Source: a virus (taxonomy: Duplodnaviria; Caudoviricetes). Taken from it: a stretch of DNA of 64,000 nucleotides. The translations under genes and the position numbers were made by a program. Below, piece by piece: positions 30,246 through 35,610 of this stretch (positions are counted from its first letter, which is position 1; each line of letters starts with the position of its first letter). Location of the stretch: positions 460-64,459 of IMG/VR virus record IMGVR_UViG_3300034071_001727. The stretch is one strand, 5' to 3'. The notes under the pieces are model-generated. The model saw only the letters and a program-made list of their open reading frames with translations, was not told the origin of the DNA and ran no database searches.

Positions 30246-30601
30246 TGGCGATCGCCGAGTATCTGATCCCCTGCAAAACGCCCAACCCGACGCGGGGTTC
30301 GCAAGGCAGCTGGCGGGCAGCGGCAGCTCGGCGCAAGCGCCAGCGCCGCGACGCGGCCTACCTGACGCCACGGCGCCTGCGCGCCCCGTGCGTCGTTCAG
30401 ATGACGCGCTTGAGCCCCGGCGAACTCGACGACGACAACCTGCGGCCGGCTCTCAAGAGCATCCGCGACGGCATCGCTGACGCGCTTGGCATCGATGACC
30501 GCGACCCGGCAGTGCGCTGGGAGTACGCCCAGGCTCGATGCAAGCGCGGGGACGAGGGTGTGCGGGTGCGGATCACCAACGGCAAGGACTTGAGCCCATG
30601 A
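30245..30601 (+). CDS. RusA-like Holliday junction resolvase
   Basis: LDDDNL..ALKSIRDGIADALGIDD. Confidence 0.8.
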   Translation: MAIAEYLIPCKTPNPTRGSQGSWRAAAARRKRQRRDAAYLTPRRLRAPCVVQMTRLSPGELDDDNLRPALKSIRDGIADALGIDDRDPAVRWEYAQARCKRGDEGVRVRITNGKDLSP

Positions 30602-31197
30602 GCGCCGCGGAACGCCTGCTGTGCATGCTCAACCCCGGCGCGATGAACCCGCTGCGCTTGCAGGAGGGCAGCAGCAGCACCAGCCCCATGCGGACAGATG
30701 CGATGCAGGTTCGCGCGGCCCTGGAGGCCATGCGCCCGCGCGTGCTGTGCACGGCCCTGCTGCTGCGACACATCCCCGAAATGATCCACACCGAAGAGCT
30801 CCGCGTGTACCAGCTGCATCTGCTGTCGGAGCTCCAGGAGCGCCAGCGCAAGGAGCGCCATTGGACGCGGCGGCTGCTGCAGCAGGCCGCGATCGTGCGC
30901 GCGGCAGTCGCCGAGACAGTGAGCCCTGAGCGCGTGTGCAGGGCATGCGCAGGCGAGGGCACCGTGCCGGTACGTGTGCGCGGCCTGATCGTGCGCACCG
31001 AGCCGTGCCAAGCCTGCGACGGGACCGGCCTGCGCCGCTGGCGGCCATCCAAGCGCCGGCGCGCTGCAGGGATCAAGAGTGAGAGCACCTGGCTTCGCAG
31101 CTGCGCCGACCCGCACGACTGGCTGGTGCGCTACATCGAGCAGCACCAGCGCGAGGGCGAGCGCGTGCTGATTCGGACGCTAGGGCGTGAACAATAG
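30598..31197 (+). CDS. Lambda Q-like late antiterminator
   Basis: CRACAGEG..CQACDGTG zinc finger; position between RusA and lysis genes. Confidence 0.75.
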   Translation: MSAAERLLCMLNPGAMNPLRLQEGSSSTSPMRTDAMQVRAALEAMRPRVLCTALLLRHIPEMIHTEELRVYQLHLLSELQERQRKERHWTRRLLQQAAIVRAAVAETVSPERVCRACAGEGTVPVRVRGLIVRTEPCQACDGTGLRRWRPSKRRRAAGIKSESTWLRSCADPHDWLVRYIEQHQREGERVLIRTLGREQ

Positions 31198-31207
31198 TCA
31201 CAGATCG

Positions 31208-31245
31208 CTAAACCGGTTGACTAAACCGGTATAAGTGCGCAATAT
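31208..31245 (+). promoter_or_regulatory. Sigma70 promoter overlapped by two CTAAACCGGT direct repeats
   Basis: TTGACT(31217)-17-CAATAT(31240); repeats at 31208 and 31221. Confidence 0.65.
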
Positions 31246-31285
31246 GCTCCCACGCCAGCAAAAGCTGGACTCACGGGAGACGGAC

Positions 31286-31522
31286 ATGAGCGCATGCGAC
31301 CACGTTTTCACAGCTACCTTCGCCCATGGCGGGAGCGATTCGCCGGGACGAATCACGCTGGATGCAGCAACCGAATCTGAGGCTATCGCTGAGGCAAACG
31401 CTTTCGTCGTTGCCGGGATGCGCAATGGCACATGGATCAACGTGACGCTTCCCGACGGCGCTTACGCCGCAAGGAACGTTCACGGAAAAGCGGTCGGAGC
31501 AACGACAAGGCACTCAGCATGA
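31286..31522 (+). CDS. Moron hypothetical protein 1
   Basis: GGGAG SD. Confidence 0.65.
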   Translation: MSACDHVFTATFAHGGSDSPGRITLDAATESEAIAEANAFVVAGMRNGTWINVTLPDGAYAARNVHGKAVGATTRHSA

Positions 31523-31737
31523 GCGCCTTCGACAAAGCACTGGCCGACTTCATCGCGGTCGCGCGCGCCGAGCTGGAGCTGAAAACCAGCGCGAAGAGCA
31601 TCGCGTACACGTTCGCAGACGGTGTGCGCCTGCTTTCACCTGACGACGAAGACGACGCGGACGACACGGATGCGCTTGGGCATGCCCTTGAAGCCGCTGC
31701 CTACAAGATGACTGACACCGAACATGCCGAAGCGTAA
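31519..31737 (+). CDS. Moron hypothetical protein 2 (acidic)
   Basis: ATGA coupling; PDDEDDADDTD. Confidence 0.6.
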   Translation: MSAFDKALADFIAVARAELELKTSAKSIAYTFADGVRLLSPDDEDDADDTDALGHALEAAAYKMTDTEHAEA

Positions 31738-31933
31738 GCCCAAGCAGCAATCGGCATACAGCATGGCAACGCGCTCACGCGCGATCCAGGGTGGCGCCCA
31801 GCGGATCGAGGTCATGTTTCCGCCAGACGACATGCAGCGGCTTGAAGCGCTCAAGGCCGCAGGCTTCGCAGACAGCTCAGCCGAGTGCATTCGGCGCGCA
31901 GTGCGCGAGGCAGCAACCGGTGTTGACAAGTGA
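31724..31933 (+). CDS. Ribbon-helix-helix (CopG-like) protein
   Basis: QRIEVMFP..DMQRLEAL..G..SSAECIRRAV pattern. Confidence 0.7.
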   Translation: MPKRKPKQQSAYSMATRSRAIQGGAQRIEVMFPPDDMQRLEALKAAGFADSSAECIRRAVREAATGVDK

Positions 31934-31953
31934 CGGTTTTTGCCCCCTAATTT
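31923..31953 (+). promoter_or_regulatory. Candidate late promoter pR'
   Basis: TTGACA-19-TAATTT (long spacer) followed by a terminator, just before the lysis genes. Confidence 0.4.
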
Positions 31954-31978
31954 GCCCATCCTGACCGTTCTCTGCCTG

Positions 31979-32013
31979 ACGCCCCGCCCTAAACCGGCGG
32001 GGCGTTTGCTTTT
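31979..32013 (+). terminator. Intrinsic terminator (tR'-like) before the lysis cassette
   Basis: ACGCCCCGCC-CTAAACC-GGCGGGGCGT-TTGCTTTT. Confidence 0.8.
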
Positions 32014-32024
32014 GGGGGTGCCAA

Positions 32025-32306
32025 ATGTTTGAGCTGAAAGGGAAAACCCGTTGGGCCATTGTTCTGGGCCTGTGCTTTCTCGCCGGATGCGCAGCGTGGC
32101 TGCTGATGGACTGGTCCGGCTACGTCCAAGGCTGGATCGGCTCGACCTTCCGCGCTGCCTCAGGCGGCGTGATCGGGTGGGCGGTCAGCCGATACGTGGT
32201 GCGGCTGGACCTGTCCTCACTGCCATCGGAGCAGCGACCGCTTGCCGGTCTGTCGCAAGCGCTGTTGATTGCCGGCTTCGCTGTTGCGGTCGCTGTCGGG
32301 GTCTGA
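32025..32306 (+). CDS. Putative holin (2-3 TM)
   Basis: Small hydrophobic protein immediately before the endolysin. Confidence 0.65.
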   Translation: MFELKGKTRWAIVLGLCFLAGCAAWLLMDWSGYVQGWIGSTFRAASGGVIGWAVSRYVVRLDLSSLPSEQRPLAGLSQALLIAGFAVAVAVGV

Positions 32307-32309
32307 GTC

Positions 32310-32984
32310 GTGCAGCCTGGACGTCACGACAGCCGCGTAGCGTGGCTGGTGGTCCTGCTATGCGGCGCGCTGATCGCCATCGCCTGGTCGACGGCGCCCA
32401 AGGCCGCTCCGCGTGTGTCAACCCACGTTAATCAGTCCCCGCCAGCCGCGGCCGAGCAGTATCGAGCCGCGATGACGCGGAGCGCATACCGCATCCATGG
32501 GCCGTCAGCGCCTGTCGCAATGCTCGCCGGGCAGATCCACCAGGAAAGCGCGTGGCAGCCGCAGGCGCGCTCCCGGGTGGGTGCCGAGGGCCTGGCGCAG
32601 TTCATGCCCGGCACAGCCGCAGACATGGCCGCACGCTTCCCCGCGGACTGCGCACCCGCCAACCCGTTCAGCCCAGCATGGGCCTTCGTGTGCCGCGATC
32701 GATACATGGCAGGCCTGCGCAGGCAGCTGCAGAGCCAAGGCAGCGGGCTAGGCGAGTGCGCACGGTGGGTGTTCGCCCTGCGGGCCTACAACGGCGGCAT
32801 GGGGTGGGTCATCCGCGACAGGCGCAAGGCCAGCGCAGCCGGAGCGGATGCCGACGACTGGATCATCGTGCAGGGCTTCAACGCCGGCCGATCAGCCGCG
32901 AACTTCCGCGAGAACACAGAGTACGCGCCGCGCATCCTGCGCTTGCAGGAGCGGTATCGCGGATGGGGCGCCGAGGCCTGCTGA
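32310..32984 (+). CDS. SLT transglycosylase endolysin with N-terminal signal-anchor
   Basis: QIHQESAW..SRVGAEGLAQFMP..AYNGG..ENTEY; N-terminal hydrophobic helix. Confidence 0.9.
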   Translation: MQPGRHDSRVAWLVVLLCGALIAIAWSTAPKAAPRVSTHVNQSPPAAAEQYRAAMTRSAYRIHGPSAPVAMLAGQIHQESAWQPQARSRVGAEGLAQFMPGTAADMAARFPADCAPANPFSPAWAFVCRDRYMAGLRRQLQSQGSGLGECARWVFALRAYNGGMGWVIRDRRKASAAGADADDWIIVQGFNAGRSAANFRENTEYAPRILRLQERYRGWGAEAC

Positions 32985-33544
32985 TGGACGCCGCGCTGAT
33001 CTTCGATTGGGCCAAGGCCATCGCCGCCGTGGCCGCTGCTGTCGCCGCCCTCGTGGCGCTTGGGAGGTGGGTGCGTGGCAGGGCGCAGAAGCTGATGGGG
33101 CCAGTCAAAGAAGCGCTCGCCGCGCTCAAGCTGATCCCAAAGCTGGTTTCGAAGATGGACGAAATCAGCCACAAACTCATGCTGGCCGAGGCGGAGAATC
33201 GCGCCCTGGCAGACAGTGACCCGCACATCGCCCGTTTCACATGCGGCGAAGGCGGATCGAACGAATACGTCAACGCCACATACGCGCGATGGCTCGAAGT
33301 CTCCCGTTCGGACCTGATGGGCTGGCGCTGGCTGTCGTATGTGCCCGAAGCCGACCGCGATCGGCTGCGCGAAGAGTGGGAAACCGCACGCGTCGAGCGG
33401 CGCGTGTATCGCGTCAGGCACGCAATGCAGACCGCCTACGGTCGACTGATCTACGTAGACACCACAGTCACCCCCGTCCCCGAGGACGGTCCCGTGCATC
33501 GCTGGATCGGCGTCATGCGCCGAGTCGAGCACTCAGCAGAGTAG
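32984..33544 (+). CDS. Membrane-anchored PAS/PAC domain protein in the lysis cassette
   Basis: TM, then coiled coil, then YVNATYARWLEVSRSDLMGWRWLSYVPEADRDRLREEW..G.LIYV..WIGVMR; TGATG coupling. Confidence 0.8.
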   Translation: MDAALIFDWAKAIAAVAAAVAALVALGRWVRGRAQKLMGPVKEALAALKLIPKLVSKMDEISHKLMLAEAENRALADSDPHIARFTCGEGGSNEYVNATYARWLEVSRSDLMGWRWLSYVPEADRDRLREEWETARVERRVYRVRHAMQTAYGRLIYVDTTVTPVPEDGPVHRWIGVMRRVEHSAE

Positions 33545-33553
33545 GAGCAACCC

Positions 33554-34309
33554 ATGATCCGCATCATCATCGCGCTGGCCACCGTGCTGGCGCTGTCGGC
33601 GTGCGCGTCGACAAAGCTCAACCAGAACCACAAGGCAAGCACTGACGCGTACACGGCAGGACAGACTCAGCTGTCTGTCGCGATCCAGACGATCGCGGAC
33701 TCCAGCGCGTGCGGGGAAGACGGCCGTTGCGTCGAGAACGCAAAAGCGTTTGCCGCGCTTGCGCTGGCTGCCGCAGGCGCAGGCGGCGCGGCGGCACAGG
33801 TGCCCGTGTACGTGGAGCAGCACCACCCAGCGTGGGGCGTGCTCGGGAGTGTGCTCGGCGTTGGTCTACGCGAAACCGGCGCGACGATTCGATCCGAGCA
33901 CGCGCGCGACCAGTTCCTGGGGCAGGTCGAAGGACAGACGCGCATGTCCGAAGCCGCGTTCGGTCTGGGCGCTGCGGCCGTGGCAGGCGCAAGCCGAACT
34001 GCCGAGGCCTACGCAGGCGCGCTGCCTGGACTCGCGCCGTCCATCGTGGTTGGCGGGAACTACGGCGACACCGCCACCGCAGGCCGCGACATGTGGGGCA
34101 ACGACAACCGCGTGGGCGATGACACGCGCATCCGAACTGGCGCAATCAACACCGGCACACAGAACCGAGGCGGCGTGATCGGCAGCGGTCAGGTCGGCAA
34201 CGGCCGTCAGGGCTCGCCGGGTCCGTTCCGCGACATTGGCCCGCAGTGTCAGGGTGAGCAGTGCCAGCAGGTGACGCCACCGCCGCCGCCGGTTGATCCG
34301 GAGGGCTGA
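33554..34309 (+). CDS. Gly-rich lipoprotein of unknown function
   Basis: AGGAG SD; LSAC lipobox. Confidence 0.75.
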   Translation: MIRIIIALATVLALSACASTKLNQNHKASTDAYTAGQTQLSVAIQTIADSSACGEDGRCVENAKAFAALALAAAGAGGAAAQVPVYVEQHHPAWGVLGSVLGVGLRETGATIRSEHARDQFLGQVEGQTRMSEAAFGLGAAAVAGASRTAEAYAGALPGLAPSIVVGGNYGDTATAGRDMWGNDNRVGDDTRIRTGAINTGTQNRGGVIGSGQVGNGRQGSPGPFRDIGPQCQGEQCQQVTPPPPPVDPEG

Positions 34310-34311
34310 CC

Positions 34312-34662
34312 ATGCTGGTGCGAGCAATCATCACGTACATCGCCCTCGCGCTCTCGCTGCTGGCCAATGCCTGGCTGGTGGCCGGTCGCATGGGCGAGGA
34401 CAAGCGCACTACGCAGACCTGCAACCTGCGCGCGGCCGAGGCAAGCGTGGAAGTGCTGAAAAACCGCGTGGGCGTGCTCGACTGGCTGCTGGTGCAGACG
34501 GCAGCGGATCAGGCAGCAACGCTGGCAAGGCTTGATGCAGTCGCAGAGCGTGCGCGAGAGCGTGACGTGCGTTGGCTGCAGGCAGACGTGCCGACGCCAG
34601 CGTGCGGGCCTGGACAGGCCTTCATCGACGCGACGAATGCGACGCTGGGGCACGGGCAGTGA
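34312..34662 (+). CDS. Rz-like inner-membrane spanin
   Basis: N-terminal TM plus helical domain; precedes a lipoprotein gene. Confidence 0.6.
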   Translation: MLVRAIITYIALALSLLANAWLVAGRMGEDKRTTQTCNLRAAEASVEVLKNRVGVLDWLLVQTAADQAATLARLDAVAERARERDVRWLQADVPTPACGPGQAFIDATNATLGHGQ

Positions 34663-34994
34663 TGCGCATAGCGCTGCTGCTGATCGCTCTGGCGCTGGCC
34701 GGGTGCGATCGGAACAACGTGCGCCCGCAGATCGAGCCGCCGCAGCCGCTGGCGAACGTCTGCGATGCGGCGTGCATGACTCCATGCGACGACGCCAAGG
34801 CCGTGGCTCTGTGGCAATGCCCAGATCCGGACGCCGGTGAGTGCTGGAAGCTCCAGAACAGTCAAGTGATCAACCCGCTGGTCACGCTCGCAGAGCGCTG
34901 CGAGGTCAAGCGCGCGGCATGCGCGGCCTGCATCGAGCGCAGCGAGAACGCCAACGCTACATGCGGGACCGTGAAGCCGTGTGGCAAGGAGTGA
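34662..34994 (+). CDS. Rz1-like outer-membrane lipoprotein spanin
   Basis: MRIALLLIALALAGC lipobox; Pro/Cys-rich. Confidence 0.65.
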   Translation: MRIALLLIALALAGCDRNNVRPQIEPPQPLANVCDAACMTPCDDAKAVALWQCPDPDAGECWKLQNSQVINPLVTLAERCEVKRAACAACIERSENANATCGTVKPCGKE

Positions 34995-34998
34995 CACC

Positions 34999-35610
34999 GT
35001 GTCGACGCGAAAGAAGCCGCCCGCCAAGGGACGCAAAGCGCAGTCCGTCCGCAACGGGCTGAATCTCAAGCAAGCCGCGTTCGTTGCTGCCTACACGACC
35101 AACGGCGGGGACGGGAAGAGGGCAGCGCTCGCAGCCGGGTACGGTGAGAAGGGCGCAGAACAACAGGCTTCCAGGCTACTGACCATGCCGCGCGTGCGCG
35201 CCGAGGTGCAGCGCATCGCCGCAGCAGGCGCTGAGCGCGCTGAAATCACGGTCGAGCGGATCATGGACGAGCTCGCCCTGGGCGGGTTCGCGGACATCAC
35301 CGACTTTGTGGAGTGGGATGCACGCGGCGTGCGGCTCAAGCCGTCAAGGAAGCTCGATGCAGCCAAGCGACGCGCCATCGTCGAGGTCGCCGAGACGATG
35401 AACGGCGTCAAGATCAAGCTGATGAACAAGCTCGGGGCGCTGGAGCGCATGGGCCAGCAGATCGGCATGTTCAAGCACCAGGTCGAGCTGCCGAGCGATC
35501 CAGCGACAGGCCAGCCGCTGGGACTGATCCTCGTGCCGTACAAGGCCCCGGCCCCGACAGCACCACCGCCTGCGCCGCCTGAGCCCGCCGGCGGCGACGA
35601 TGGGGATTGA
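34999..35610 (+). CDS. terS: Terminase small subunit
   Basis: LNLKQAAFV..RAALAAGY..QASRLL..IKL.NKLGALE. Confidence 0.9.
   Translation: MSTRKKPPAKGRKAQSVRNGLNLKQAAFVAAYTTNGGDGKRAALAAGYGEKGAEQQASRLLTMPRVRAEVQRIAAAGAERAEITVERIMDELALGGFADITDFVEWDARGVRLKPSRKLDAAKRRAIVEVAETMNGVKIKLMNKLGALERMGQQIGMFKHQVELPSDPATGQPLGLILVPYKAPAPTAPPPAPPEPAGGDDGD

What the first reader, a model, noticed from the sequence alone, without database searches (positions are those of the whole stretch)
32984..33544. Membrane-anchored PAS sensor embedded in the lysis cassette
Seen: a 186-aa gene translationally coupled (TGATG) to the endolysin and lying upstream of the spanins. It has one TM helix followed by basic RWVRGRAQK, a coiled coil, and a PAS/PAC-like domain (YVNATY..LMGWRWLSYVPEADR..WIGVMR) with no output domain. 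Known: PAS domains sense ligands or redox, and the single-TM T4 holin T carries a globular GAF-like domain used in lysis inhibition. Inference: the positive-inside rule puts the PAS in the cytoplasm, so this may be a holin or holin regulator that ties lysis timing to host physiology.
Basis: partly seen in the sequence, partly recalled or inferred. Interest (0 to 1): 0.78.

Follow-up and report, generated by a model that had tools for sequence, protein, structure and literature searches.

The report
Membrane-tethered PAS protein in phage lysis cassette
An uncultured phage carries, right behind its cell-wall-cutting enzyme, a small protein that hangs a cytoplasmic PAS "sensor" domain from one membrane helix, and its relatives in other phages sit exactly where the lysis-timing holin gene normally lies, so it probably helps decide when the host bursts, which has not been described or tested.

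Summary
ORF 32984..33544 (+) encodes 186 aa whose ATG overlaps the TGA of an SLT endolysin. It has one N-terminal TM helix, a helical linker and a PAS domain with nothing after it (Pfam PAS_3 40.6 bits against a cut-off of 25.6; the model matches solved PAS/LOV structures).

The TM flank charges predict N-out/C-in in all 10 close homologues. dN/dS against a related phage is 0.10.

New here: of 48 kept loci with relatives, 38 carry the PAS. In 15 of those 38 the gene overlaps the start of a Phage_lysozyme that has a basic N-tail plus a TM (SAR-like). That is the classical holin slot.

All 17 loci whose protein matches ours at BLASTP E<=1e-16 lie among lysis genes. The 19 most distant PAS-bearing loci showed no lysis neighbour among those I scanned.

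No match to DUF2730 (the Mu releasin family) or to any holin family. Four family members found nothing in 50,697 GenBank phage records. Four literature searches found no paper linking PAS domains to phage lysis.

Best reading: a lysis-timing component for Sec-exported endolysins, holin-like or releasin-like, with a cytoplasmic PAS as input. Sensing and timing are inferred, not shown.

The scan had noted PAS proteins in lysis cassettes before, on other DNA.

The parts
31978..32006 (+). Terminator-like G+C-rich hairpin with a T tail, just upstream of the lysis cassette
   Evidence: 11-pair stem, 9 of them G-C, then TGCTTTTGGG. The scan found 10 terminator-like sites in 31000..35200 against 3.2 +/- 1.9 in shuffles. 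It lies after a 199-aa gene at 30598..31197. A role as a lambda-like late terminator is inference.
32025..32306 (+). 93-aa small membrane protein. It is a holin candidate by position and size only.
   Evidence: TM segments at residues 10-28 and 73-91, and a lipobox-like LAGC. No Pfam or PHROG family. 90% identical in L001, dN/dS 0.06. 41.5% identical over 65 aa to the gene in the same position in phage MACPNOA1. No similarity to the JBD18 Holin_2-3 protein. The Atlas search was uninformative.
32310..32984 (+). SLT-type endolysin, 224 aa, with an N-terminal basic tail (MQPGRHDSR) and a hydrophobic segment at residues 10-27. It is Sec-exported, either through a SAR anchor or a cleavable signal; which one is not resolved.
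   Evidence: PF01464 at 2e-13 and phrog_669 endolysin at 3.4e-45. N-terminal analysis. 174 phage records hold relatives, mostly Ralstonia, Pseudomonas and Burkholderia phages.
32984..33544 (+). The finding: a 186-aa membrane-tethered PAS protein (P0001)
   Evidence: dN/dS 0.10 against L001.
33011..33073 (+). Ala-rich TM helix (residues 10-30), predicted N-out/C-in
   Evidence: Kyte-Doolittle 2.07. The N flank has net charge -1 and the C flank has 4 K/R. The bias is the same in 10 of 10 homologues. This is the least conserved part: 43% mean pairwise identity against 69% for the PAS.
33074..33184 (+). Juxtamembrane basic stretch and helical linker (residues 31-67), with conserved Pro52
   Evidence: Predicted as a helix at pLDDT 53-72. 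Pro52 is at least 90% conserved in A2. hhalign to the short TM-PNGG phage proteins gives 67.6% probability over residues 16-65, which is inconclusive.
33185..33223 (+). Junction motif AEAENRALADSDP (residues 68-80), the most conserved stretch of the close family
   Evidence: 92% mean pairwise identity in A1.
33224..33523 (+). PAS domain (residues 81-180)
   Evidence: PAS_3 and PAS_4 above their cut-offs. Strands 82-87, 92-96, 142-149, 155-166 and 171-180. PDB matches are PAS/LOV. The position of the LOV photoactive Cys is occupied by an aromatic residue, so it is not a LOV domain.
33554..34309 (+). 251-aa lipoprotein of unknown function, wedged between the PAS gene and the spanins
   Evidence: Signal plus lipobox LSAC. 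No family. 76% identical in L001 and 49% over 84 aa to the MACPNOA1 gene in the same slot. The nearest Atlas clusters are viral hypothetical proteins.
34312..34662 (+). i-spanin-like protein, 116 aa, with an N-terminal TM
   Evidence: TM at residues 5-23. BLASTP hits to the gene in the same position in L001, L004 and L008. No Pfam family. Assigned by position and architecture.
34659..34994 (+). o-spanin-like lipoprotein, about 111 aa
   Evidence: Lipobox LAGC after MMRIALLLIA. BLASTP hits to lipoproteins in L001, L004, L008 and L009. It is followed by the terminase small subunit (phrog_51 at 4.8e-25).

Best explanation
The gene encodes a dedicated lysis-cassette protein. It consists of a cytoplasmic PAS domain tethered to the inner membrane by one N-out/C-in helix, and it acts together with a Sec-exported (SAR-type or signal-anchored) endolysin.

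Proposed mechanism:
1. It is made from the late operon, translationally coupled to the endolysin, and accumulates in the inner membrane.
2. Its membrane helix and juxtamembrane part are the output. They either depolarise the membrane, like a one-TMD holin or pinholin, or help the endolysin's N-terminal anchor leave the bilayer, like the Mu releasin.
3. The conserved PAS domain sets when this happens, by dimerising or by responding to a cytoplasmic ligand, redox state or partner protein.

In this phage a separate 93-aa membrane protein precedes the endolysin, so here the PAS protein is more likely the auxiliary or regulating partner. In many relatives it is the only candidate in the holin slot.

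Shown: the gene, its fold, its predicted topology, purifying selection, and conserved linkage to exported endolysins.
Inferred: action on the membrane or the endolysin, any sensing, and any effect on timing.
For: 1. It is a real, constrained gene. dN/dS against L001 is 0.10, lower than the endolysin (0.16) and the spanins (0.28-0.29).

2. The PAS is confirmed by sequence and by fold.

3. Topology. All 10 close homologues have a short acidic or neutral N flank and 3-6 K/R after the TM. Among 90 short representatives of the wider family, 60 have a 17-mer with Kyte-Doolittle >=1.6, and 57 of those 60 show the same K/R bias.

4. Linkage.
- 48 loci with relatives were kept, 38 of them with a PAS.
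- In 15 of the 38, the stop of the gene overlaps the start of a PF00959 lysozyme by 4-34 nt. In 10 of the 15 the overlap is a 4-nt NTGA. These starts come from my own gene caller.
- Those lysozymes carry 1-5 K/R in an N-tail followed by a hydrophobic 18-mer that is 33-56% Gly/Ala/Ser/Thr/Cys (which covered 9 of the 15).
- Spanin-like genes follow; in L038 one is an Rz1-like LysC (PF23793, 3.9e-15).
- Of the 17 loci at BLASTP E<=1e-16 to P0001, 13 show this arrangement. L001 copies the window. In L004 the gene follows a spanin pair homologous to the window's. L006 and L007 precede a two-TM protein, and in L006 a weak lysozyme match follows.
- Two of the 15 are prophages in MAGs titled Lysobacter sp. 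and Luteimonas sp..

5. Holin slot. In 12 of the 15 I saw no other small membrane-protein gene in the cassette apart from spanin-like ones. The check for uncalled ORFs covered 9 of the 15.

6. Precedents for this topology in lysis.
- Mu gp25 releasin is 99 aa, N-out/C-in, has a 73-aa cytoplasmic domain and is needed to release a SAR endolysin (PMC9239132, passages).
- LysF1b of F1 mycobacteriophages is a one-TMD N-out/C-in protein with holin function (bioRxiv 10.64898/2025.12.04.692442, abstract and passages).

7. In relatives with the linker motif EVxPNGGxSLRD, the N-terminal module matches phrog_9869 (L008 3.4e-6, L004 1.4e-4, P0015 4.8e-4). Stand-alone forms without a PAS match phrog_9869 (down to 1e-22) and phrog_15431 'holin' (3.6e-7 and 3.6e-11). 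They sit directly after Amidase_2 endolysins in L033 and L035. Their relatives in Arthrobacter phages are labelled 'holin' in RefSeq.

8. Phage MACPNOA1 has the same cassette (92-aa protein, SLT endolysin 64% identical, 260-aa lipoprotein). In the slot of the PAS gene it has a different membrane-anchored cytoplasmic helical protein, 165 aa with a C-terminal TM.
Against: - There is no experiment of any kind.
- P0001 matches no holin, antiholin or releasin family. PF10805 (DUF2730) and PF10874 (DUF2746) are absent at E<=1, and PF10805 is absent from the whole virus record.
- P0001 lacks the PNGG motif and does not match phrog_9869. Its only PHROG match is phrog_12535 (unknown function, E 0.0028).
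- hhalign of its family against the short TM-PNGG proteins is inconclusive (67.6% probability; 19% for A4).
- The TM is the least conserved part (43% identity against 69% for the PAS). That fits an anchor better than a pore-forming helix.
- The cytoplasmic part has net charge +3, not anionic like Mu gp25.
- In this window the gene lies after the endolysin, not before it, and a separate holin candidate exists.
- In L005, L048 and L050, extra small TM ORFs lie downstream of the lysozyme and could be the real holins.
- 19 of the 38 PAS-bearing loci, the most distant ones, showed no lysis gene among the neighbours I scanned. Their neighbours include virion structural, ribonucleotide-reductase-like and integrase genes.
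- Whether the window's endolysin is SAR-type or has a cleavable signal is unresolved. Its MACPNOA1 and JBD18 relatives look like cleavable or lipoprotein signals.
- No cofactor-binding signature was found, so the PAS may be only an oligomerisation or docking module.
Confidence: 0.5

Rival explanations
1. It is itself the holin or pinholin, of a one-TMD N-out/C-in class. The PAS is only the cytoplasmic oligomerisation or timing domain and senses nothing. This is a special case of the best explanation, scored here on its own.
For: It occupies the holin slot directly before SAR-like lysozymes in 15 loci, and in 12 of them I saw no other small membrane protein. One-TMD N-out/C-in holins now have an experimental precedent in LysF1b. 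Charged residues (DEKRH) make up 54 of the 160 cytoplasmic residues, 34%, inside the 30-50% range given for LysF1b-like proteins. The TM is rich in small residues.
Against: The TM is poorly conserved relative to the PAS. There is no holin family match. In the window a separate 93-aa membrane protein holds the slot before the endolysin. A domain as strongly conserved as this PAS and its junction motif (92% identity) suggests more than a spacer.
Confidence: 0.25
2. It is an antiholin or regulator that binds the 93-aa membrane protein at 32025 and delays or licenses its triggering.
For: The two genes occur together, with the endolysin between them, in the window and in L001. Both are under strong purifying selection, dN/dS 0.06 and 0.10. 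Cytoplasmic and membrane antiholins exist (T4 RI and RIII, P1 LydB), known to me from search listings only and from recall.
Against: None of the other 46 kept loci has a BLASTP match to the 93-aa protein (which covered the loci fetched up to then, L001-L043). The conserved partner across the family is therefore the exported endolysin, not this protein. MACPNOA1 keeps the 92-aa homologue without a PAS gene. No binding test was run for this pair.
Confidence: 0.15
3. It is an accessory gene (moron) unrelated to lysis that merely rides in the late operon. Examples would be a decoy that interferes with host PAS signalling, or a superinfection or defence-related factor.
For: Lysis regions are common insertion sites for accessory genes (general knowledge, recalled). 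The gene is absent from MACPNOA1 and JBD18, which have homologous endolysins. 19 distant family members are not next to recognised lysis genes. A 27-28-aa stretch resembles the PAS of host NtrB-like kinases in Lysobacteraceae genomes.
Against: Adjacency with overlapping stop and start to exported lysozymes is kept across 25-43% identity and in phages with different neighbouring modules. In L004 the gene has moved but stays beside the spanins. dN/dS is as low as for core genes.
Confidence: 0.12

Closest known systems
Phage Mu gp25 'releasin' (DUF2730, PF10805); PMC9239132, abstract and passages read; supplementary tables not seen
   Same: A single N-terminal TMD predicted N-out/C-in, with almost nothing in the periplasm. 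The rest is a cytoplasmic domain. It is a late gene within a few genes of a Sec-exported, membrane-anchored endolysin and next to the spanins. Per the paper, one DUF2730 type pairs with transglycosylase SAR endolysins, and the window's endolysin is a transglycosylase.
   Different: No sequence match to PF10805 in the protein or anywhere in the virus record. It is 186 aa against 99. The cytoplasmic domain is a PAS fold with net charge +3, not a short anionic domain. Relatives lie before the endolysin rather than after the spanins. The phage is not Mu-like in the region read; it has a lambdoid order with terminase genes following.
LysF1b, the one-TMD N-out/C-in holin-like protein of F1-cluster mycobacteriophages (assigned by the authors to DUF2746, PF10874); bioRxiv 10.64898/2025.12.04.692442, abstract and passages read
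   Same: One N-terminal TMD, N-out/C-in. Basic residues follow the TMD. The cytoplasmic domain is highly charged (34% DEKRH here). It is encoded in the lysis cassette and is paired in some phages with a second small membrane protein.
   Different: No PF10874 match at E<=1. The hosts here are Gram-negative, and the partner endolysins are exported. The cytoplasmic domain is a folded PAS rather than a charged tail.
Pinholin S21-68 with SAR endolysin R21 of phage 21 (recalled knowledge; mentioned in passages)
   Same: The gene order in 15 relatives is membrane protein, SAR-like lysozyme, i-spanin, o-spanin, with overlapping stop and start.
   Different: The pinholin has two TMDs, one of them a SAR domain, and a short cytoplasmic tail. 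Here there is one TMD and a 105-aa PAS. There is no sequence similarity to any Pfam or PHROG holin family.
T4 lysis inhibition: holin T with antiholins RI (periplasmic) and RIII (cytoplasmic) (PMC11413866 and PMC8385771, search listings only; the rest recalled)
   Same: The concept is the same: lysis timing is set by a signal read through a globular domain attached to, or acting on, a one-TMD lysis protein.
   Different: T is N-in/C-out with a periplasmic globular domain, and the signal is superinfection sensed in the periplasm. Here the globular domain is a cytoplasmic PAS. No homology was tested or expected.
Stand-alone TM-EVxPNGGxSLRD-helix proteins (phrog_9869; related to phrog_15431 'holin'), labelled 'membrane protein' or 'holin' in Arthrobacter phages such as Mufasa8 and Laroye
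   Same: They have the same N-terminal module as the PNGG-type TM-PAS relatives (L008, L004, P0015). They are placed directly after Amidase_2 endolysins in L033 and L035.
   Different: They have no PAS. P0001 itself lacks the PNGG motif and has no phrog_9869 match. The profile-profile link is inconclusive. As far as I saw, 'holin' is an annotation and not a tested function.

Membership tests
PAS domain (Pfam PAS_3 PF08447 / PAS_4 PF08448) | Profile match above the curated gathering score | tested here: met
   PAS_3 40.6 bits against 25.6, and PAS_4 40.0 against 23.1, over residues 87-181. All 10 clusters carry the same precomputed Pfam hits.
PAS domain (Pfam PAS_3 PF08447 / PAS_4 PF08448) | PAS fold: a five-stranded antiparallel sheet flanked by helices | tested here: met
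   The model has pLDDT about 90 over the domain, with strands at 82-87, 92-96, 142-149, 155-166 and 171-180. Foldseek top hits are 5luv, 3olo, 2gj3 and 8px4, with TM-score by target 0.70-0.86.
PAS domain (Pfam PAS_3 PF08447 / PAS_4 PF08448) | Bound cofactor or ligand (optional for the family) | not testable with these tools
   No coordinates or pocket analysis were available. No heme-His or LOV-Cys signature was seen.
LOV (flavin photoreceptor PAS) | Photoactive Cys in the conserved Cys-Arg-Phe-Leu stretch | tested here: not met
   In the profile alignment to 5luv, the LOV 'DCRFLQ' aligns with the family consensus 'gwgflnf', so the Cys position holds an aromatic residue.
Mu gp25 releasin / DUF2730 (PF10805) | Match to PF10805 over the whole protein, including the TMD | tested here: not met
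   Not listed at E<=1 for P0001. 0 matches in the own virus record. 0 of 5 records behind L045, L044, L038, L004 and L008.
Mu gp25 releasin / DUF2730 (PF10805) | N-terminal TMD, N-out/C-in, with a minimal periplasmic part | tested here: met
   By prediction only: about 9-11 residues precede the TM, and the K/R bias points to C-in in 10 of 10 homologues.
Mu gp25 releasin / DUF2730 (PF10805) | Late gene within about 5 genes of the endolysin, which is a SAR endolysin in types I and II | tested here: inconclusive
   Adjacency is met. The window's endolysin has a basic tail plus a hydrophobic segment, but SAR against cleavable signal is unresolved. 15 relatives abut TM-bearing lysozymes.
Mu gp25 releasin / DUF2730 (PF10805) | Required for release of the endolysin from the membrane | not testable with these tools
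   This needs expression and fractionation experiments.
Holin (functional class) | Small membrane protein encoded with the endolysin in the late lysis cassette | tested here: met
   Relatives occupy the position before the endolysin in 15 loci.
Holin (functional class) | Match to a described holin family | tested here: not met
   No holin family in Pfam or PHROGs for P0001, nor for L038, L042, L047 and L050. Only PNGG-type relatives reach phrog_9869, and only the forms without a PAS reach phrog_15431 'holin'.
Holin (functional class) | Lethal membrane permeabilisation at a set time, triggered early by energy poisons | not testable with these tools
   An experiment is needed.
LysF1b-like one-TMD holins (DUF2746, PF10874) | Profile match to PF10874 | tested here: not met
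   Not listed at E<=1 for P0001, nor for L033 and L035. HMMER filters drop most matches above E of about 0.1.
LysF1b-like one-TMD holins (DUF2746, PF10874) | One N-terminal TMD, N-out/C-in, basic residues after it, and 30-50% charged residues in the cytoplasmic part | tested here: met
   26 K/R, 23 D/E and 5 H in 160 residues, which is 34%. The criteria come from passages of the preprint.
Class II pinholin (S21-68 type) | Two TMDs, the first a SAR domain | tested here: not met
   Only one hydrophobic segment. The criterion is recalled.

The most novel reading that the evidence does not exclude
These proteins form an undescribed class of phage lysis effector. A cytoplasmic PAS sensor is wired directly, through one helix, to a single membrane-spanning segment. 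That segment takes the holin's place in front of SAR endolysins. An intracellular signal read by the PAS (energy or redox state, a metabolite, or a phage or host protein) then gates membrane depolarisation or endolysin release. Lysis timing would be decided by sensing and not only by holin accumulation.
Probability: 0.33. Interest if true: 0.85.

Novelty: new variant of a known kind. Interest (0 to 1): 0.74.

Why it matters
In the studied models, when a phage lyses its host is set by holin accumulation. In T4 and N4 it is also set by lysis inhibition after superinfection.

A family that puts a PAS domain, the commonest cytoplasmic sensor module in bacteria, on a one-helix membrane protein in the holin position would give phages a direct way to couple burst timing to the state of the infected cell.

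It would also widen the newly recognised group of N-out/C-in one-TMD lysis proteins (Mu releasin, LysF1b) to uncultured phages and to prophages of Lysobacteraceae.

It offers a compact two-gene system, PAS protein plus SAR lysozyme, that can be tested in E. coli. If the PAS binds a ligand, that system could become a switchable lysis module.

Tried and rejected
The contexts of the public homologues P0005, P0008, P0009 and P0011, and of the 90 short representatives, could therefore not be read. I used the search for related loci instead.

**Searches that found nothing.**
- The search for related loci with A1 found nothing in genome contigs or viral contigs.
- The same tool with A6 found nothing in viral contigs.
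- tblastn against 50,697 phage records found nothing for P0001, P0015, the L038 protein, the L047 protein or the L032 short protein.
- P0001 as a sequence query to the scan's own notes found nothing.

**Rejected ideas.**
- LOV or flavin photoreceptor: rejected.
- DUF2730 membership: rejected. I had guessed that the 129-aa N-TM helical protein of JBD18 (L045) would be DUF2730. It gave no Pfam hit and the record holds no PF10805 match, so I make no such claim.
- Similarity of the 93-aa protein to the JBD18 Holin_2-3 holin: none.

**Uninformative or inconclusive.**
- The Atlas look-ups of the 93-aa and 251-aa proteins were uninformative.
- hhalign of the N-terminal module against the short TM-PNGG family was inconclusive.
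- Longer representatives were checked for informative fusions. P0142 is a tandem TM-PNGG-PAS repeat. P0064 and P0079 are ordinary multi-PAS proteins or kinases.

**Complex prediction.** I ran one job: P0001 with alignment A1, plus endolysin residues 1-60. The tool gave 'no answer', with score 0.00 against a mark of 0.32, and did not fold the controls. This is evidence neither for nor against binding. The pair with the 93-aa protein and the homo-oligomer were not run because the cap is one job.

**Gene calling.** My first three gene-calling scripts mis-called the high-GC cassette and were replaced by a codon-usage caller. That caller reproduces the window's cassette. Its start codons are still only estimates.

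**Rows dropped before counts.**
- L052 and L053: host NtrB-like kinases with a 27-28-aa match only.
- L003: the window itself.
- L044 and L045: fetched through the endolysin, not through the PAS protein.

**Near-duplicates kept in counts.** L013, L014 and L015 are the same. L016 and L017 are the same. L047 and L049 are 99.6% identical, and L008 and L009 are 87% identical.

**Papers.** Supplementary files were not opened. Table S1 and Fig. 6 of PMC9239132, and the supplementary figures of the LysF1b preprint, may list family members that bear on the comparison.


Full report
**1. What is there**

The window is a virus record of 64,459 bases, rated 90% complete. Around the finding, the + strand carries a lambdoid-type late region:

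- a terminator-like hairpin at 31978-32006;
- a 93-aa membrane protein at 32025..32306;
- an SLT endolysin at 32310..32984 (PF01464 2e-13; phrog_669 3.4e-45);
- the finding at 32984..33544;
- a 251-aa lipoprotein at 33554..34309;
- an i-spanin-like gene at 34312..34662;
- an o-spanin-like lipoprotein at 34659..34994;
- the terminase small subunit (phrog_51 4.8e-25) and large subunit.

The finding's ATG overlaps the endolysin's TGA, giving TGATG, and GAGG lies 7 nt upstream.

**2. The protein**

P0001 is 186 aa.

- Pfam: PAS_3 40.6 bits (cut-off 25.6) and PAS_4 40.0 bits (cut-off 23.1) on residues 87-181. Nothing else reached its cut-off.
- PHROGs: only a weak hit of the N-terminal 65 residues to phrog_12535, of unknown function (E 0.0028).
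- AlphaFold with a 10-row alignment: mean pLDDT 76.6. There is one helix at 3-78 (pLDDT 53-72) and a PAS unit at pLDDT about 90.
- Foldseek: PAS/LOV domains in the PDB (E about 1e-7). In BFVD it found small 'PAS domain' proteins of uncultured phages and of Cellulophaga phages, aligned over nearly the whole length.
- It is not a LOV domain.
- The hydrophobic segment is Ala-rich. Its N flank is short and acidic and its C flank carries 4 K/R. All 10 close homologues show the same bias, so N-out/C-in with a cytoplasmic PAS is the predicted topology.

Within the close family, conservation differs by region:

| Region | Mean pairwise identity |
|---|---|
| N-tail and TM, residues 1-30 | 43% |
| Linker, residues 31-67 | 40% |
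| Junction motif AEAENRALADSDP, residues 68-80 | 92% |
| PAS, residues 81-180 | 69% |

'Coiled coil' is not established. The linker holds Pro40 and a Pro52 that is at least 90% conserved in the wide alignment.

**3. It is a real gene under constraint**

A metagenome contig (L001) carries the same cassette in the same order. Against it:

| Gene | dN/dS |
|---|---|
| 93-aa protein | 0.06 |
| TM-PAS | 0.10 (dS 0.87) |
| Endolysin | 0.16 |
| Lipoprotein | 0.19 |
| TerS | 0.20 |
| Spanins | 0.28-0.29 |

**4. The family**

- The word-indexed search gave only 10 clusters of 183-198 aa.
- A profile search of 1.84 billion representatives gave 6,866 hits at E<=1e-3, 502 at <=1e-10 and 16 at <=1e-30.
- Of the best 150, 59 are long multi-PAS proteins and 91 are 119-270 aa.
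- Of the 90 short ones other than P0003:
 - 60 have a 17-mer with Kyte-Doolittle >=1.6 near the N-terminus;
 - 57 of those 60 have more K/R after it than before it;
 - 45 of the 90 carry a linker motif PN[GN]G, in full EVxPNGGxSLRD.
- P0001 lacks that motif.

**5. Where relatives lie**

I fetched 50 loci with a tblastn-confirmed relative: 2, 34, 6, 4 and 4. I dropped L052 and L053, which are host NtrB-like kinases with a 27-28-aa match only. That leaves 48.

Ten of the 48 are short forms without a PAS: L025-L027, L029 and L032-L037. The other 38 carry a PAS. Genes were called with my own codon-usage caller.

Result for the 38:

(a) In 15 loci (L005, L008, L009, L038-L043, L046-L049, L050, L051), the stop of the PAS gene overlaps the start of a gene that Pfam calls Phage_lysozyme. 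E ranges from 1.3e-11 to 7.2e-38, and all 15 are above the cut-off.
 - The overlap is 4 nt (NTGA) in 10 of the 15 and 8-34 nt in the other 5.
 - The lysozymes have an N-tail with 1-5 K/R and then a hydrophobic 18-mer that is 33-56% small residues. This was measured for 9 of the 15. It is the build of SAR endolysins as described in PMC9239132.
 - Spanin-like genes follow. L038 has an Rz1-like LysC.

(b) L001 repeats the window.

(c) In L004 the gene follows a lipoprotein and a spanin pair whose members match the window's spanins (1e-9 and 2.6e-9). It precedes the large terminase.

(d) L006 and L007 lie after tail-fibre-like genes and before a two-TM 128-aa protein. In L006 a protein with a sub-threshold lysozyme hit follows (20.0 bits against 22.3).

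(e) The remaining 19 loci are L002, L010-L024 without L021's exception noted below, L028, L030 and L031; in full: L002, L010, L011, L012, L013, L014, L015, L016, L017, L018, L019, L020, L021, L022, L023, L024, L028, L030 and L031.
 - They showed no recognised lysis gene among the neighbours I scanned: 8 proteins, 4 and 10. Not every neighbour was scanned.
 - Their neighbours include a virion structural protein and a tape-measure-like protein (L024), an integrase (L016), and large replication or nucleotide-metabolism-like genes (L010, L012, L019).
 - Several (L002, L018, L021, L022, L030, L031) are flanked by small TM proteins.

By similarity to P0001, the 17 loci at BLASTP E<=1e-16 are all in classes (a) to (d). 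L008 and L009, at about 1e-8, are in class (a). The lysis linkage therefore holds for the part of the family to which the window's protein belongs, and it fades in the most distant part.

**6. Is it the holin there?**

In 9 class (a) cassettes I searched for uncalled + strand ORFs of >=25 aa with a TM. I found only an o-spanin-like lipoprotein ORF in L043 and a 33-aa ORF inside another gene in L039.

Among called genes:
- L005 has a 42-aa TM ORF.
- L048 has a 126-aa two-TM protein.
- L050 has 41-aa and 45-aa TM ORFs downstream of the lysozyme.

In the other 12 I saw no membrane protein besides the lysozyme and the spanin-like genes. A holin elsewhere in those genomes is not excluded.

**7. Relation to known lysis proteins**

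- Mu gp25, the 'releasin', is a 99-aa N-out/C-in protein with four periplasmic residues and a 73-aa cytoplasmic domain. It is needed to free the SAR endolysin gp22. Its family, DUF2730, maps within five genes downstream of the endolysin, and one type pairs with transglycosylase SAR endolysins (PMC9239132).
- P0001 shares the topology and the neighbourhood but not the sequence. PF10805 is absent from P0001, from the whole record and from five related records. Its cytoplasmic part is not anionic.
- LysF1b of F1 mycobacteriophages is a one-TMD N-out/C-in protein. Its deletion abolishes sharp lysis, and on its own it supports poison-triggerable lysis. The authors call it a new class of holin. P0001 fits the descriptive criteria but not PF10874.
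- The N-terminal module of PNGG-type relatives matches phrog_9869.
- The stand-alone forms also match phrog_15431 'holin' and lie right after Amidase_2 endolysins. Their relatives in Arthrobacter phages are annotated 'membrane protein' in GenBank and 'holin' in RefSeq.
- A profile-profile link between P0001's own N-terminus and this module is only suggestive (67.6%).

**8. The cassette in cultured relatives**

The SLT endolysin has relatives in 174 phage records: Ralstonia 97, Pseudomonas 50, Burkholderia 13.

- MACPNOA1 has a 92-aa protein (41.5% identical over 65 aa to the 93-aa protein), an SLT endolysin (64%) and a 260-aa lipoprotein (49% over 84 aa). Between the endolysin and the lipoprotein it has a 165-aa helical protein with a C-terminal TM instead of the PAS protein.
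- JBD18 has a Holin_2-3 holin, a 52-aa TM protein, the SLT endolysin (54%), an Rz-like gene and a 129-aa N-TM helical protein.

The slot therefore accepts different membrane-anchored cytoplasmic proteins, and the PAS version is one option among them.

**9. Literature**

- 'PAS domain' with 'holin', 'endolysin' and 'spanin': 0 papers.
- 'PAS domain' with 'holin' and 'bacteriophage': 9 papers, none about a phage PAS lysis protein, judged by title and start of abstract.
- 'PAS domain' with 'endolysin': 15 papers, none relevant by title.
- In a two-of-five-terms search, none of the 25 listed papers holds 'PAS domain'.

Subscription journals are outside that library.

The scan's own notes list PAS proteins in the lysis cassettes of other phages. 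Those are unchecked AI notes on other DNA. They agree with what I find here independently.

**10. Verdict**

The reading 'lysis component' is well supported by conserved gene linkage. 'Sensor that ties timing to host physiology' remains inference.

I put 0.5 on a role in controlling the release or activation of the exported endolysin. The holin-like and releasin-like modes are unresolved, and in this phage the protein probably works alongside the 93-aa protein.

For the rival readings I put:
- 0.25 on a plain one-TMD holin that senses nothing;
- 0.15 on an antiholin of the 93-aa protein;
- 0.12 on an unrelated accessory gene.

These readings overlap in part.

Noticed in passing
window 32025..32306: The presumed holin (93 aa) matches no holin family. 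It carries a lipobox-like LAGC ending at Cys22, after a basic N-terminus, plus a C-terminal TM that runs to the last residue. It is the most constrained gene of the cassette (dN/dS 0.06 against L001).
   Followed up: partly
window 33554..34309; L001 8568..9326; L044 4036..4818: A 251-260-aa lipoprotein with a Gly/Asn-rich C-terminal half sits between the endolysin region and the spanins in three related cassettes. It has no family. The nearest Atlas clusters are all viral hypothetical proteins.
   Followed up: partly
L044 3537..4034 (phage MACPNOA1, KY697807): In the slot of the PAS gene this phage has a 165-aa helical protein with a single C-terminal TM, annotated 'cell adhesion'. It is a tail-anchored cytoplasmic protein inside a lysis cassette, of unknown role.
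   Followed up: partly
L023 6004..7023: A 339-aa relative fuses the TM-PNGG-PAS unit to a C-terminal stretch that looks like a response-regulator receiver, judged by eye from the translation. It follows a 174-aa two-TM protein and a 190-aa protein with no Pfam hit.
   Followed up: no
L033 5857..6174; L035 5737..6156; L026, L027, L032: Stand-alone TM-EVxPNGGxSLRD-helix proteins of 100-140 aa (phrog_9869) lie directly after Amidase_2 endolysins in high-GC contigs, or directly after very large (about 1,960-1,980 aa) genes. A preprint seen only as a search listing (10.64898/2026.08.27.747656) says that phage D29 has a one-TMD lysis regulator downstream of the tape measure. A link was not tested.
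   Followed up: partly
L052 3003..4055; L053 4950..5990: Host NtrB-like kinases of Lysobacteraceae genomes, next to NtrC-like and glnA-like genes by eye, share a 27-28-aa stretch (about 50-56% identity) with the PAS of the phage family around the ARWLGVG motif. It may hint at the origin of the phage PAS, or it may be chance.
   Followed up: no
window 31978..32006 and 30598..31197: A strong terminator-like hairpin directly precedes the lysis cassette. It follows a 199-aa gene with paired Cys-x-x-Cys motifs. The layout recalls lambda Q, the late terminator and the lysis genes.
   Followed up: no
P0142 (385 aa): One representative repeats the whole linker-PAS unit twice behind a single TM.
   Followed up: no
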